From sequence record LR694611: DNA of 64,000 bases; one strand, written 5' to 3'. This document shows, one piece after another, positions 28,990 through 33,594 of the stretch. This DNA is from Escherichia phage rV5_ev158. The translations under genes and the position numbers were made by a program. The notes below the pieces were generated by a model. The model saw nothing but the letters and a program-made list of their open reading frames with translations. It was not told the origin of the DNA and did no database searches. Within the stretch, counting starts at the first letter, position 1; each line of letters starts with the position of its first letter.

Positions 28990-29016
28990 AGGACGCTCTG
29001 TGGCGTCCTTTTCTTT
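28990..29016 (+). terminator. Rho-independent terminator
   Basis: AGGACGCTCTGTGGCGTCCT hairpin plus TTTCTTT. Confidence 0.65.
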
Positions 29017-29177
29017 ATCTGGTGCACGATTGCATACCTTGGACAGATAATCTCGTTACAGAGCGTTTAAGAGCTTTCTACAAACAAGTCTCTCTTTCGA
29101 GCGTAGCGAGAACGCACGTCCGTTTTGACCCAAATCACCATACGCTCGGATTTTAACCAAACCCTCGCGGCGTTGCT

Positions 29178-29206
29178 GTTGACACATTACCGCTCCCGTG
29201 ATAGTA
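29178..29206 (+). promoter_or_regulatory. sigma70-like promoter TTGACA-17-TAGTAT
   Basis: -35 at 29178-29183, -10 at 29201-29206. Confidence 0.5.
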
Positions 29207-29239
29207 TCCACACACAGTTTGGAGAATATGGAATACACA

Positions 29240-29329
29240 ATGAGAACATTGTCTGAAGTTTTAGTGGTGATCCTGATGATCATTACTTCCATAGCGGCTG
29301 TTGCCGGAATACTCACGGGTGGAACATGA
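29240..29329 (+). CDS. small hydrophobic peptide, 29 aa
   Basis: Downstream of promoter; single TM-like VLVVILMIITSIAAVAGIL; stop overlaps next start (ATGA). Confidence 0.3.
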   Translation: MRTLSEVLVVILMIITSIAAVAGILTGGT

Positions 29330-29538
29330 TCAACACACATGCATCTGAAGAGACATCCGAAGGAGTGACCATATGTCCCTTGGATGAGCCAGTTAAAGAG
29401 GAAAACTTAGATTCTGAGGACTCTTCATCTTCGTCCCAGACAGATCCTGAGGCTGATGACCTGACGTGGGAGGACATCGTAGATATCTGGTTCTCTATTA
29501 TGCCTGAGCACGAAGAGTTCAGAGGTGGTAGACTATGA
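29326..29538 (+). CDS. small highly acidic, Ser-rich protein
   Basis: 70 aa; DSEDSSSSSQTDPEADD. Confidence 0.4.
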   Translation: MINTHASEETSEGVTICPLDEPVKEENLDSEDSSSSSQTDPEADDLTWEDIVDIWFSIMPEHEEFRGGRL

Positions 29539-29659
29539 AGCACCGAGCCCACACAGGTTCCTCATGCTAAAGCATGGCCTGAAGAGGCAAACGTGTATAA
29601 TTCTTGTGCATTGGAACGTATAAAACCCTGTTCACACTCTCATTCCCAGAGGAGATTTT

Positions 29660-29875
29660 ATGAAGATAGAGATATTTGGTGGAGCTGACAACACTCGTGG
29701 CCTGATTTACCTTGAATTCGATGAATCATACCTGCCAGAGGTGTTAAATATAGACTCTGTTGCTGAGGCTTTGGGAGTAAACCCTAAAGAACTCCACTCT
29801 TGTGCTGAGATCGATGGTTGGGAAGAGACCATGAACATTGATTTCAGTGAAGTAGAGGATGAACCGCTAGACTGA
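29660..29875 (+). CDS. small acidic protein (MKIE start)
   Basis: 71 aa; last plus-strand gene before the ORF-free zone. Confidence 0.45.
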   Translation: MKIEIFGGADNTRGLIYLEFDESYLPEVLNIDSVAEALGVNPKELHSCAEIDGWEETMNIDFSEVEDEPLD

Positions 29876-30004
29876 CACACAATCAGCTGCCCGGCTAAAG
29901 TGCTGGAAGCGCACCTATAACACATCTTTCAACTAAATTTCCTACCACCACAATCACTTACCTACCACACATGACTGTTTGCTTGTTTAGTGAGCAGTCA
30001 TGCC

Positions 30005-30033
30005 TTGACATTCTTGCCTATCCTGATAAAATT
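30005..30033 (+). promoter_or_regulatory. sigma70-like promoter TTGACA-16-TAAAAT reading into ORF-free DNA
   Basis: -35 at 30005-30010, -10 at 30027-30032; no ORF of 60 aa or more on either strand for about 2.2 kb downstream. Confidence 0.45.
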
Positions 30034-31382
30034 AAGTTCTTCTCTTTTCTTTTACCGAGTAATTCGGGTTTTCTGTTCTCTTCGGTTTGAAGGGGTATGG
30101 AGATACACCTGAGTGAACAGGGTGAACAACCGAACCATTGGCTATGGCATTAGCATGGCGAAGCGGACGGGTGACGAAAGAGGGGCCGGAGGACACCAGT
30201 CACTGCCATATGATATATGGGTGATAACCTGAAGAGTCTGAATAAGTGTTTAAGTACCAGTCAGAGGAAAAGGTGAATGGTAGCCGAAGGGGGATGGGGG
30301 GTTTCTTGTATCTTTAATTTGTATATTATGTATACACTTGTAAACCAATCTCATCTGAATCTGTTTACCACACAAAGCGGATAGAGACAAATATCACCTA
30401 TTAAACTTGAATTATTTATAGAAAATACCACAACACCACTTAAGTCTTTGATTTTACACACAAATCCTACAGATATTCAACCTCCATATTTAACATACTT
30501 GTAACATATTCCATACTCTACCTGTCTGATCAATTTCCCCAACTACATTCTCATATTTTCCCTGTCTGTACTACCCCTGCCCCGCCGGGAGTCCCGTCAT
30601 ATCTGGCTTTCCAGCAAATATCACACCCACAAATATCATTGCCTGAAGAGGGTTTCATCCCATAATACCTGCCTTACCTGAAGAGCGCTTCATACACCAC
30701 GTAAATTTTTTAATTGACCTCCCCCTGCCCCGCCGGAGAGGTTGGCTTTTCCCACACAGACCTGAAGAGTCAGCCAGAAATATCTGAACAGGCCCAATTC
30801 TACCACGATTTTGACCTGACCTACAGGGAGGCCCGAAGGGTCTAGCTTTCAGCTAGAGTCCTTGCAGGACCTACAGGAGCGCTGCCAGGCGGACGGAATG
30901 GGAATACTTCTCATTCTTATAACAATTCTCAAATATCGAGACAGTGAGAGAAATTAATAGGCCAGGCCGTTCACACAGTGGCACAACATTTGCAACCTAT
31001 TTTGGGTGGATGAATGAGAATACCTATCATTGTGAGAACTGTTATCATTACGGGCAATTTAACATAATACCCATTATGCGCACCACCGGCGATACATACA
31101 GGGATTGATAACATGGGTTACTGTTTACGCACATAACAATTATATTTCTTACTATTTGTGTGGGATATAGTTAGCAGCCGATAGATTAGATATTAACCTG
31201 CAGACTTCTGACCGTCCAGACGTCTAAACGCCCACACACCAAGGATTATACATACACTCCTGAATGTAAACAGGGCCGCAAAAATGCTACCATACAAGCT
31301 TGTAAATTTTTCATGCAGCACTTGACAAAGAGGAGAAAAACTTGTCTGACATAATGTGACCTAACTGACACAACATGACACT

Positions 31383-31471
31383 TTTACACACCTATTAGTT
31401 TACACACTGGATTGTTTACATTCCTGATTGTTCACATGCTAACCATTTACATGATTGACTGTTTACACACC
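31383..31471. repeat. iteron-like array, six copies of (T/A)GTT(T/C)ACA spaced 14-16 bp
   Basis: TTTTACACACC, AGTTTACACAC, TGTTTACATTC, TGTTCACATGC, CATTTACATGA, TGTTTACACACC; further TGTTTAC copies near 31121, 31265 (inverted), 31871, 31924, 31973. Confidence 0.6.
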
Positions 31472-31479
31472 GATAATCA

Positions 31480-31773
31480 GCCATGCCATTCGTTTGCATG
31501 AAAACAATTAACAAGATAACAATCGACAAGTTAATAATCTTTCGCTGGCTATGCCAGGTGACTAGGTCACCCCTTCGGGCGTTCCTATGACATAATATAA
31601 AAGCAGGGCAACTATTAGCAGATCTATAGTTGCCTTGCTTGTTATGTCATGATTAACTAAATACAAGGCAACTATGATCTGATTAATAGTTTGCAGACAA
31701 ACTATCACGGGGGTGATGGTTACTGCTTTTATATTATGTCGCGACTCCGTCGCGCCATGCCATTCGTTTGCAT
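31480..31773. repeat. 20 bp perfect direct repeats flanking a palindrome-rich 274 bp module
   Basis: GCCATGCCATTCGTTTGCAT at 31480-31499 and 31754-31773; between them a ~66 bp imperfect palindrome (31586-31652, centre AGATCT), GCAACTAT/ATAGTTGC inverted repeats and hairpin CGCGACTCCGTCGCG. Confidence 0.6.
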
Positions 31774-32380
31774 AGTTGCCTTATTGTTACGAATAAAACA
31801 ATTGCATTGTTAATGATTTCTTATCTTTCTCTTAGTCATCTAATGATTCCAGTCAGTATAGTAATGTACAGTAAACATTAGACGACTAAAGATTTCTCTG
31901 TTTATGATAACTCATCTTGATAATTTCGGACTGTTTACGAAAAATGTTGACACCTGAGCTGATTTATGTTATGCAGTTTACACGAATAATTATTTTATGC
32001 AGGTATTGACTATTCCGTTATTCTGTGGTTGGAATAAATACTTTGCAGGCTATAGAATGGCGTGCGTACGTGAATTCTGAGATCTGGCGGCTATAGTTAT
32101 ACTCGATTTTTCGCGTAGAACACGCTTTCGATGCTGTGTAAGTGTATGACTTATAAAGATTTTTAGTTGTTGACAAGATATTGGAGATGTGCATCAGGTT
32201 AAAATTTGTGCAATAGCGGCATTACGTGCACTTTTGGGAGAGAAAACGGGTAAAAATGGACTTGCTACCACACAATGAAAAATTATGCAATAGTTATTTT
32301 CCATGTATATTTGTACAGTATGTGGGATTGATGGCTAGTCAATTATTCCACTTGCCAGGTAGGGCCGTTTATGGTAGGAG

Positions 32381-32404
32381 AAGAGCAGACAAAAAGAAAG
32401 GGGC
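32381..32404 (-). terminator. Rho-independent terminator for the minus-strand block
   Basis: AGGGGCCTAAGCCCCT hairpin; on the minus strand it is followed by a T-run (plus-strand AAAAAGAAA upstream). Confidence 0.6.
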
Positions 32405-32433
32405 CTAAGCCCCTTGATAATTCAGTTAAAAAA

Positions 32434-32853
32434 TTATAATGATTCGTATATTTCAAAAATCCGATTTGCCAGGTCGTTACGGTAGCGGAATTTTTCCTCA
32501 CGTTTGATCATAAGATCTTTATAGCCGTACTCTTTAAGCACTTCATTAACTTTATGGCGGCATACTTTCATATTATCCTGCGCGTCACCAATAAATCTGT
32601 TGCTATGGTGCATGGCTTTAATTTCTTCTTCCAGGACCAGGGCAACTATGCGGACCGGATCAAGCTGATAGGCGGTAACATCCATGCGGCATTGTAAACG
32701 GCTTTTTACGTCTGCCACCGGATATACTGCAACCTCTTCCCCGTCAACATTGATAATAATTAGTTTACCATCGATTTCGAATCCTTTCGCCGCCGGACCG
32801 TGACAAAAAGCGTTATCAAAGCTATATGCCGGATTATTAGATTTAATGTTCAT
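32434..32853 (-). CDS. hypothetical protein
   Basis: 139 aa; last gene of the minus-strand block. Confidence 0.5.
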   Translation of the reverse strand: MNIKSNNPAYSFDNAFCHGPAAKGFEIDGKLIIINVDGEEVAVYPVADVKSRLQCRMDVTAYQLDPVRIVALVLEEEIKAMHHSNRFIGDAQDNMKVCRHKVNEVLKEYGYKDLMIKREEKFRYRNDLANRIFEIYESL

Positions 32854-32997
32854 GGTGTTTTTACCTCTTAGTTAATTTTCTTACAACTTCCCTTCAAAAA
32901 AGAATATAGCAAAACTGCCGATCCCTGTCAACCAGGGATAGCATAATTTTTATGTGATCAAGGGGCTTTATTGCCCCTGACCATGTAACTTGTTGTA

Positions 32998-33261
32998 TTA
33001 TTTGTTGCTCATCCAGTTTTCCCAAGCTGCCTGATAATCTGCCTCACTACGGCGGATCTCTTCTTGCTCTTCAAGGCGGATCTCTTCTTCCAGGTACCCC
33101 AAGATGTCAGCCTTTTTAGTCTGGCGTAGCATCCAGTCATCTTTTTTGCGAGTGAAGATCTTATAAGCTTTCTCGCAAACCTCTTTTTTGCTACCTTTCT
33201 GGACTTCAAGAACACGATAAGCCATATATTGAACTAATTTGAGCTGATCAAGACGTTTCAT
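32998..33261 (-). CDS. hypothetical protein
   Basis: 87 aa, charged. Confidence 0.45.
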   Translation of the reverse strand: MKRLDQLKLVQYMAYRVLEVQKGSKKEVCEKAYKIFTRKKDDWMLRQTKKADILGYLEEEIRLEEQEEIRRSEADYQAAWENWMSNK

Positions 33262-33321
33262 GATGTTTACCTCTTTGTGCGGTTCTGATTAGTGGGCCTT
33301 TTGGCCCGTGTCATTATCTTA

Positions 33322-33594
33322 TTACTTATGGCGGCAGAATTCAAGCGTTTTTAATTGATAATCTTCCTCAGCCTGGAGTACAACCGCCTCGATCATTTCG
33401 TTGGCATTGTTGAAGCCATACCCTTTAGCGAACTCGTCCGCACCACCTTCGTGATCATGTTCTGCGTTCATCGCTTCCACAAAATGGAATTCCAAATTGT
33501 TGAGGTAGGGGCTTGATGTGCCGTCTTCTTTTTCGATGAGATCCCAAATAGCATTAAAACGTGATTCGACTTCTTGATTAATCCAGCTTGACAT
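33322..33594 (-). CDS. hypothetical protein
   Basis: 90 aa; AGAGGAAAA upstream of ATG; TTGACA promoter-like sequence in the upstream intergenic region. Confidence 0.45.
   Translation of the reverse strand: MSSWINQEVESRFNAIWDLIEKEDGTSSPYLNNLEFHFVEAMNAEHDHEGGADEFAKGYGFNNANEMIEAVVLQAEEDYQLKTLEFCRHK

What the first reader, a model, noticed from the sequence alone, without database searches (positions are those of the whole stretch)
31383..31471. Iteron-like array of six (T/A)GTT(T/C)ACA repeats at 14-16 bp spacing
Six copies of one 8-11 bp motif sit head-to-tail in the same orientation within 89 bp, and at least five more TGTTTAC copies lie within about 600 bp on either side, one inverted. This density is far above chance and is typical of initiator or regulator binding arrays.
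Basis: seen in the sequence. Interest (0 to 1): 0.6.

Follow-up and report, generated by a model that had tools for sequence, protein, structure and literature searches.

The report
Repeat array beside phage genome end
The six-copy repeat is real and far beyond chance, but it sits right next to the terminal repeat that marks the physical end of an rV5-like coliphage genome, so it is more likely a genome-end (packaging or end-processing) signal, like the short repeats beside the ends of phage T7, than a replication-origin iteron array.

Summary
The window is an rV5-like Vequintavirus. Six head-to-tail TTYACA cores lie on the + strand at 31383-31467, spaced 16,16,16,15,16 bp. This is the densest 6-mer cluster in the 64-kb window. 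No shuffle reached it, and it is the only such cluster in the 138-kb genome.

The array lies in a 2.56-kb non-coding gap between convergent gene arms. It starts 37 bp inside the right boundary of the 458-459-bp direct terminal repeat (DTR, window 30888-31346) reported for close relatives. A second array, TGAC(A) at a 9-10 bp period, fills those 37 bp.

In 17 Vequintavirus genomes the DTR-end box and a downstream 20-bp box are conserved. The stretch between them varies from 114 to 221 bp through gain and loss of whole units. Polarity is strict (92 TTYAC on +, 0 on -), and the core is more conserved than the spacers. Sister genera keep the DTR-end box but have no array.

A better iteron-type origin candidate lies about 40 kb away: four 22-bp palindromes, an AT-rich stretch and a wHTH "replication initiation" gene.

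Best reading is a protein-binding genome-end element analogous to T7 SRL (confidence about 0.45). The function is untested. Moderate interest.

The parts
30888..31346 (.). Direct terminal repeat (DTR) of the virion DNA, present once in this assembly. It runs from GGCGGACGGAATGGG to GAGAAAAACTTGTC.
   Evidence: Gotham has a repeat_region annotated at 1-459 and at 136567-137025. Both ends of EdH4 align the same way. Six records start exactly at window 30888. Papers PMC7471380 (459 bp) and PMC6563267 (458 bp) report the repeat. The boundaries were inferred by homology and were not measured for this phage.
31347..31381 (+). First array: TGAC(A) cores at 31347, 31357, 31366 and 31376, with a 9-10 bp period. 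It starts at the first base after the DTR. The first copy is TGACATAAT.
   Evidence: It is the only cluster of at least 4 TGACA per 100 bp in the 138-kb genome. Relatives carry 1-8 copies, with 63 on + and 6 on -. Indels occur in whole units.
31383..31467 (+). The finding: six TTYACA cores with a 15-16 bp period. The units run roughly from 31377 to 31472. The genus-wide consensus unit is tgACTGTTTACAc.
   Evidence: (family D1).
31480..31499 (+). Conserved 20-bp box GCCATGCCATTCGTTTGCAT. It is the right-hand anchor of the hypervariable stretch and is repeated exactly at 31754-31773.
   Evidence: (family D7). It is present in all 17 relatives examined.
31119..31131 (+). Isolated unit-like copy ACTGTTTACGCAC inside the DTR.
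   Evidence: (D2/D8).
31254..31272 (-). Inverted unit-like copy inside the DTR. It is 84% complementary to unit 3 (31413-31431).
   Evidence: (I6).
31500..31773 (.). Context, probably a separate element. This module lies between the two 20-bp direct repeats. It contains ACAA-rich 15-bp repeats (31503-31539), an 18-nt perfect inverted repeat (31589-31606 / 31723-31740), GGCAACTAT x4 in both orientations, and terminator-like hairpins. It is absent in phage FV3.

Best explanation
The array is a cis-acting genome-end element. It is a head-to-tail platform of short binding sites (core A-N3-TTYAC, one per 15-16 bp), preceded by a related TGACA array at about 10 bp. Both lie immediately inboard of one copy of the 459-bp direct terminal repeat.

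Proposed mechanism (inferred, not shown). In replicating concatemers, a phage DNA-binding protein coats this unique, polar array. The protein could be the unidentified small terminase or an accessory end-recognition factor. The coated array marks the adjacent DTR boundary (...CTTGTC|TGACA...). The large terminase then cuts there, or the DTR is duplicated and processed there. This would parallel the short-repeat array SRL next to the T7 terminal repeat, and the multi-site cosB/pac regions of other phages.

Shown here: position, uniqueness, polarity, periodicity, constraint on the core, and turnover of whole units.

Inferred: that a protein binds, and that the process served is packaging or end processing.
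For: (1) Position. The DTR boundaries map to window 30888-31346 by alignment with both ends of Gotham and EdH4 (annotation; PMC7471380, PMC6563267). The TGACA array begins at the first base after the DTR, and the TTYACA array begins 37 bp after it.

(2) Uniqueness. Both arrays are the only clusters of their motif in the 138-kb genome.

(3) Conservation in kind. All 17 Vequintavirus genomes examined have the arrays between two conserved anchors. The stretch varies from 114 to 221 bp. Units repeat at 15-16 bp, and autocorrelation peaks at lags 9, 15-16 and 31-32.

(4) Polarity. TTYAC occurs 92 times on + and 0 times on -. TGACA occurs 63 times on + and 6 on -.

(5) Constraint.
- In 117 PWM-selected 16-mers, a set that also includes TGACA-array units, information content is 1.3-1.7 bits at A(-4), TT, A and C. 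It is at or below 0.8 bits at the other positions.
- Between orthologous units of 7 phages, core columns differ less than spacer columns (0.088 against 0.196 mean pairwise difference; Mann-Whitney p=0.004).

(6) Not coding and not structured.
- No ORF of 40 aa or more overlaps the array.
- Unit indels of 15-16 nt are not multiples of three.
- There is no Rfam match.
- The folding z-score is -0.35.

(7) Direct analogue. In T7 the 160-bp terminal repeat is followed, from nt 175, by about 12 CCTAAAG-type cores at 12-14 bp spacing in one orientation.

(8) Transcription from the flanking arms probably does not enter. The last right-arm gene has its own promoter and terminator.
Against: - No binding protein is identified. 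No small terminase gene was found, and the two genes upstream of TerL are spanins.
- Mydovirus (KPP-1) and Seunavirus (PVP-SE1, GAP31) keep a homologous DTR-end box but have no array after it. The array is therefore not required for the subfamily's shared end-cutting chemistry.
- Copy number falls to 1-2 recognisable units in navn, PDX and nom, so many copies are dispensable.
- No comparable array lies on the other side of the DTR, unlike T7 SRR.
- The function of T7 SRL itself was never established (my recollection).
- The termini were not measured for this very phage. One paper infers headful packaging for a Vequintavirus (PMC13211470).
- The core-versus-spacer test uses related sequences and a MAFFT alignment that may favour core matches.
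Confidence: 0.45

Rival explanations
1. Replication-origin iterons. A phage initiator would bind the repeats and open nearby DNA.
For: The array is a dense, same-orientation repeat set in a long non-coding region. The cumulative GC skew of the window turns here. The rV5 paper also saw a skew change at 104.4-105.5 kb but attributed it to the switch in transcription direction (PMC3606486).
Against: - The period is 15-16 bp with a 6-9 bp core, not 17-22 bp units phased by whole helical turns.
- Copy number is highly variable among close relatives.
- No AT-rich stretch is adjacent (GC 0.33-0.40).
- No initiator-like neighbour was found.
- The genome has a canonical candidate elsewhere. It has four 21-22-bp palindromic repeats next to about 130 bp at 18-27% GC and a wHTH gene in PHROG 12838 'replication initiation protein'. 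It is 90-99% conserved in 118 records.
- The skew turn coincides with convergent transcription.
Confidence: 0.1
2. Transcription-related array. The TTGACA/TTTACA (-35-like) and TGACATAAT (extended -10-like) elements would bind host RNA polymerase or a phage regulator at the genome end. This could give an early rightward promoter, a polymerase trap, or control of DNA entry.
For: - The cores resemble -35 hexamers.
- TGACATAAT (TG-n-CATAAT) occurs only twice in the 64-kb window, at 31347 and 31588, both on +.
- A TTGACA is conserved at the DTR end across genera.
- T7 also has host promoters just inside its left end (annotation).
Against: - The consensus scan finds no properly spaced -35/-10 pair on either strand between 31300 and 31480.
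- No gene or Rfam RNA lies downstream on +.
- The genes to the right are on the opposite strand.
- The position conserved across relatives is A-N3-TTYAC, not a full hexamer pair.
Confidence: 0.15
3. By-product repeats. These would be slippage-prone or recombination-prone tandem duplications that accumulate next to the processed DNA end, with no sequence-specific role.
For: - Whole-unit indels and a 114-221 bp length range occur among close relatives.
- Sister genera lack the array.
- Some genomes keep only 1-2 units.
Against: - Spacers within one genome are already diverged while the core is kept.
- Orthologous cores change about half as often as spacers.
- Polarity is absolute in all 17 genomes.
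- An array is retained in every genome of the genus examined.
Confidence: 0.2
4. Cluster of host DnaA boxes, or sites for another host factor such as OmpR or PhoP.
For: TTTTACACA at 31382-31390 fits the relaxed DnaA box TTWTNCACA. Three other units are one mismatch away by my own reading of the sequence.
Against: - Only 1 of the 6 units is an exact relaxed match.
- The CACA part is not conserved in relatives, where TTYACG is frequent.
- The 16-bp period does not match the 10-11 bp tandem spacing of OmpR, PhoP or PhoB sites (established knowledge, not tested).
Confidence: 0.03

Closest known systems
Phage T7 short-repeat arrays beside the terminal repeat (SRL/SRR of Dunn and Studier 1983; the names are from memory, the sequence was checked here)
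   Same: - It lies immediately inboard of a short direct terminal repeat: T7 TR 1-160 with the array from nt 175; here DTR 30888-31346 with the arrays from 31347 and 31383.
- All copies are in one orientation.
- A short conserved core is separated by variable spacers at a period of 12-16 bp.
- Extra copies of the core lie inside the terminal repeat.
   Different: - There is no sequence homology (CCTAAAG against TTYACA or TGACA).
- The host virus is an unrelated myovirus of 138 kb.
- There are two successive arrays with different periods.
- No matching array lies on the other side of the repeat.
- Copy number is very variable within the genus.
- The T7 arrays themselves have no established function.
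Terminase recognition regions made of repeated sites (lambda cosB R-sites, P1 and SPP1 pac; from established knowledge, not tested here)
   Same: Several short repeats lie within about 130 bp of the cleavage position, and the site is unique in the genome.
   Different: Binding by a small terminase is not shown, and no small terminase gene was recognised. The element is not conserved in sister genera that share the boundary box.
Iteron-type origins (lambda ori, plasmid iterons)
   Same: Direct repeats in one orientation in non-coding DNA.
   Different: The period and core length differ. There is no AT-rich unwinding element and no adjacent initiator. Copy number is not conserved. A canonical candidate of this kind exists elsewhere in the same genome.

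Membership tests
Iteron-type replication origin | Three or more direct repeats of about 17-22 bp, phased by whole helical turns | tested here: not met
   The period is 15-16 bp (about 1.5 turns) and only 6-9 bp are conserved.
Iteron-type replication origin | Adjacent AT-rich DNA-unwinding stretch | tested here: not met
   GC is 0.33-0.40 in all 60-bp windows from 31340 to 31549. The other candidate shows 0.18-0.27.
Iteron-type replication origin | Cognate initiator gene at or next to the repeats | tested here: not met
   Ten flanking proteins have no Pfam hit and fall only in PHROGs of unknown function.
Iteron-type replication origin | Supports initiator-dependent replication | not testable with these tools
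   Needs plasmid-amplification or origin-mapping experiments.
T7-type short-repeat array flanking a direct terminal repeat | Lies directly inboard of the terminal repeat | tested here: met
   The DTR ends at 31346 and the arrays start at 31347 and 31383. In T7 the TR ends at 160 and the array starts at 175.
T7-type short-repeat array flanking a direct terminal repeat | Short conserved core with variable spacer, in one orientation, at a 12-16 bp period | tested here: met
   (92 copies on +, 0 on -).
T7-type short-repeat array flanking a direct terminal repeat | Counterpart array on the other side of the repeat (SRR) | tested here: not met
   Left of 30888 there are only loosely spaced repeats: CCTGAAGAG at 30228, 30642, 30677 and 30761, and AAATATCA x3. 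There is no tight periodic array.
T7-type short-repeat array flanking a direct terminal repeat | Sequence homology to the T7 heptamer | tested here: not met
   The core is different. This is an analogy only.
Terminase recognition site (cosB/pac-like) | Adjacent to the cleavage position and unique in the genome | tested here: met
Terminase recognition site (cosB/pac-like) | Bound by the small terminase subunit | not testable with these tools
   No TerS was recognised; the genes upstream of TerL are Rz-like spanins. Needs EMSA or footprinting.
Terminase recognition site (cosB/pac-like) | Conserved among phages that share the end sequence | tested here: not met
   KPP-1, PVP-SE1 and GAP31 keep CTTGACArGGAG...TTGTGT but have no array.
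DnaA-box cluster | Multiple matches to TTWTNCACA | tested here: not met
   There is one exact match in the array, at 31382. The CACA part is not conserved in relatives.
Sigma-70 promoter | -35 and -10 hexamers 16-18 bp apart | tested here: not met
   No site was reported between 31300 and 31480 on either strand.

The most novel reading that the evidence does not exclude
The polar two-tier array (TGACA at about 10 bp, then TTYACA at about 16 bp) is the genus-specific recognition or stop signal that tells the Vequintavirus packaging machinery where the terminal repeat ends. A bound protein filament could act as a ruler or roadblock for the cut at CTTGTC|TGACA. That would make it the first defined cis-acting packaging signal of a DTR myovirus. 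It would also give an experimentally tractable model for the never-explained T7 SRL/SRR repeats, because copy-number variation supplies natural alleles.
Probability: 0.25. Interest if true: 0.55.

Novelty: new variant of a known kind. Interest (0 to 1): 0.35.

Why it matters
rV5-like phages are widely used as candidates for therapy and biocontrol against E. coli. Many deposited genomes are still opened arbitrarily or called circularly permuted. A unique, easily recognised array abutting the terminal repeat gives a sequence landmark for the true genome ends.

If it is the end-recognition signal, it would define the packaging specificity of the genus. That is relevant to transduction risk and to engineering. 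It would also offer a handle on the old question of what short repeats beside phage terminal repeats do.

The analysis also redirects the search for the replication origin to a better candidate elsewhere in the genome.

Tried and rejected
- Rfam at E<=1 over 29000-33500 gave no match.
- Folding 31340-31500 as a single strand gave no excess structure (z -0.35).
- The sigma-70 scan found no spaced hexamer pair in the array.
- Tandem Repeats Finder does not report the array; it finds only a 15-bp ACAA repeat at 31503-31539.
- The relaxed DnaA-box reading gave one exact match only.
- Host-factor motifs recalled from memory (OmpR, PhoP, PhoB, TyrR, LexA, IHF, Tus/Ter) were rejected on spacing or sequence, without a formal test.
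- Neighbouring proteins were screened as possible binders in Pfam and PHROGs; all have unknown function.
- I looked for a link between the palindromic iteron half-site ACGGACA and the DTR start GCGGACGG. ACGGACA occurs 18 times genome-wide, so the link was dropped.
- An IMG/VR scan with the 18-mer from the conserved box returned only two extra loci.
- Literature searches for T7 SRL/SRR function found nothing usable. The statement that their function is unknown rests on memory.
- A first fuzzy-regex script timed out.

Full report
**Identity and setting.** The 2-kb region around the finding is 100% identical (one 1-bp gap) to Escherichia phage rV5_ev168. It is 90-98% identical to about 100 other Vequintavirus genomes. 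The array lies in a 2,558-bp stretch without annotated genes (window 29876-32433). To the left is a + strand arm of small genes, and to the right a - strand arm, so transcription converges here. The original rV5 paper drew this stretch as a box labelled "non-coding". It assigned no function and regarded the genome as circularly permuted (PMC3606486).

**The observation.**
- Six TTYACA cores lie on the + strand at 31383, 31399, 31415, 31431, 31446 and 31462. Spacing is 16,16,16,15,16 bp.
- A motif-agnostic test asked for the largest number of non-overlapping copies of any 6-mer in any 90 bp. It picks exactly this site as the top cluster of the whole 64-kb window (5 exact TTTACA).
- None of 1000 dinucleotide-preserving shuffles of the non-coding region reached 5, and none of 100 shuffles of the window did.
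- I rebuilt the 138,126-bp genome from the window plus LR694610.1 1-74,200. In it, this is the only place with at least 3 same-strand TTYACA in 100 bp.
- The stretch immediately upstream (31323-31376) is the only place with at least 4 TGACA in 100 bp.
- Five more GTTTAC lie within 600 bp: three direct and two inverted, against about one expected.

**The key context is a genome end.**
- Several relatives' records (EdH4, HdK5, Gotham, bov10K2, bov25_3, ECP2309) begin at the base that corresponds to window 30888.
- Gotham carries annotated 459-bp repeats at both ends.
- Aligning both ends of Gotham and EdH4 with the window places the repeat at 30888-31346. It runs from GGCGGACGG to AAAAACTTGTC.
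- The base after the repeat starts a TGAC(A) array (31347, 31357, 31366, 31376). The TTYACA array follows from 31383.
- The finding is therefore 37 bp inboard of one copy of the direct terminal repeat (DTR).

**Comparative anatomy.**
- In 17 Vequintavirus genomes (16 distinct sequences), the last about 50 bp of the DTR are conserved. So is the 20-bp box GCCATGCCATTCGTTTGCAT.
- The stretch between these two anchors ranges from 114 to 221 bp.
- It always consists of TGACA(Y) units at about 10 bp followed by units at 15-16 bp, with consensus tgACTGTTTACAc.
- Copy number runs from 1-2 recognisable units (navn, PDX, nom) to about 10 (V5, slur16, ev156).
- Autocorrelation over all sequences peaks at lags 9, 15-16 and 31-32.
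- Polarity is absolute: 92 TTYAC on + and none on -; 63 TGACA on + and 6 on -.
- An alignment of the seven long arrays shows that differences are insertions or deletions of whole units.
- Within units, information is concentrated at A(-4), TT, A and C (1.3-1.7 bits). The remaining positions are at or below 0.8 bits.
- Between orthologous units, core columns differ about half as much as spacer columns (0.088 against 0.196; one-sided Mann-Whitney p=0.004; invariant columns 36/48 against 41/75, Fisher p=0.018). The sequences are related and the aligner may favour core matches, so this is supportive, not decisive.

**What it is not.**
- It is not coding. No ORF of 40 aa or more overlaps it, and unit indels are not multiples of three.
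- It is not a known RNA.
- It is not a structured strand (z -0.35).
- It is not a spaced sigma-70 promoter.
- Only one unit is an exact relaxed DnaA box.

**Sister genera.** The DTR region itself is recognisably conserved in Mydovirus and Seunavirus. KPP-1 has a 514-bp DTR at 116,316-116,829 (PMC9862379). Its end, CTTGACAAGGAGAGAGAATTGTGT, is homologous to the rV5 end CTTGACAAAGAGGAGAAAAACTTGTC. PVP-SE1 and GAP31 have the same box. None of the three has a short-period array after it; their best 6-mer clusters reach 3-4 copies elsewhere. The arrays are therefore an elaboration specific to Vequintavirus.

**A better origin candidate.** While looking for a small terminase, I found that the genes upstream of TerL are spanins. 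I also found that a 116-aa winged-helix protein (LR694610.1 64,980-65,330, - strand) belongs to PHROG 12838 "replication initiation protein" (E 2.5e-80). Its Pfam hits to HTH_36 and DUF6945 fall just below the cut-offs.

Directly 3' of this gene lie four tandem 21-22-bp palindromic repeats, GTGTCCGTATCACGGACAGTTA (64,823-64,908). Next to them is about 130 bp at 18-27% GC. This region is 90-99% identical in 118 Vequintavirus records. The RefSeq V5 record names the gene "replication initiation protein". This has the classical iteron-origin anatomy that the DTR-adjacent array lacks.

**Closest known.** I read the ends of T7 directly. The 160-bp terminal repeat is followed, from nt 175 to 332, by about 12 CCTAAAG-type cores at 12-14 bp spacing, all in one orientation. 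Copies also lie inside the repeat, and a looser set lies before the right-hand repeat.

The rV5-type arrays share position, polarity, the core-plus-spacer design and the period range with these. They share no sequence, and they lack a counterpart on the other side of the DTR. In T3 and T7, packaging specificity maps to the terminal 5% of the genome, and maturation starts at the concatemer junction (PMC3276506). To my knowledge the role of the heptamer arrays themselves was never settled.

**Interpretation.** The best-supported reading is a polar array of protein-binding sites that serves recognition or processing of the genome end (packaging start or stop, or DTR duplication). My confidence is about 0.45. 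The rivals are:
- by-product tandem repeats (0.2);
- a transcription or regulator array (0.15);
- origin iterons (0.1);
- host DnaA or other host-factor sites (0.03).

**Uncertainties.**
- The termini were not measured for this phage.
- One report infers headful packaging for a Vequintavirus from a phage cocktail (PMC13211470).
- No binding protein is known.
- The element is dispensable at the subfamily level.

**Verdict.** The "binding array" idea is reasonable, but the "iteron/origin" label is probably wrong. None of the annotated records and papers examined here describes the feature. It is an analogue of a known but poorly understood kind of element, and is of moderate interest.

Noticed in passing
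Outside the window: LR694610.1 64,680-65,330 (L025 14680-15330): Candidate replication origin. Four tandem 21-22-bp palindromic repeats GTGTCCGTATCACGGACAGTTA lie next to about 130 bp at 18-27% GC. They sit directly 3' of a 116-aa wHTH gene in PHROG 12838 'replication initiation protein'. The region is 90-99% conserved in 118 Vequintavirus records.
   Followed up: partly
window 31500-31773 (direct repeats at 31480-31499 and 31754-31773): A 274-bp module is bracketed by two identical 20-bp direct repeats. It contains an 18-nt perfect inverted repeat (31589-31606 / 31723-31740), GGCAACTAT x4 in both orientations, and terminator-like hairpins on both strands. Phage FV3 has a single copy of the 20-bp box and lacks the module, so it is dispensable or mobile.
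   Followed up: partly
window 31321-31346; L020 2506-2529; L021 1238-1261; L022 1226-1249: The last about 25 bp of the terminal repeat (CTTGACA, a purine-rich run, then TTGT) are conserved across Vequintavirus, Mydovirus and Seunavirus. This is a likely core of the end-cutting site.
   Followed up: partly
window 31347 and 31588: TGACATAAT (extended -10-like) occurs only twice in the 64-kb window, both on +. One copy is the first base after the terminal repeat, and the other is at the start of the 18-nt inverted repeat.
   Followed up: no
window 30228-30769 and 30571-30736: The other side of the terminal repeat carries looser repeats: CCTGAAGAG x4 (30228, 30642, 30677, 30761), CCCCTGCCCCGCCGG x2 spaced 148 bp apart, and AAATATCA(C/T) x3. 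An insertion of about 50 bp relative to EdH4 lies between two CCTACAGG copies just before 30888. AAATATCA pairs also precede the DTR of KPP-1.
   Followed up: no
window 32398-32931, - strand: The last gene of the right arm (32434-32853, 139 aa, PHROG 12277, unknown function) has its own near-consensus promoter (TTGACA-17-TATATT with TG, 32931-32903) and an intrinsic terminator (32415-32398). Transcription from the right therefore probably stops before the non-coding region.
   Followed up: no
window 30005-30067, + strand: A near-consensus promoter (TTGACA-16-TAAAAT with TG, 30005-30032) is followed within about 25 nt by a terminator-like hairpin (30055-30067). No ORF is attached.
   Followed up: no
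Records MG0656xx named 'Campylobacter phage': About 18 unverified 'Campylobacter phage' records are 90-98% identical to this E. coli Vequintavirus region. These are probably mislabelled or contaminant genomes.
   Followed up: no
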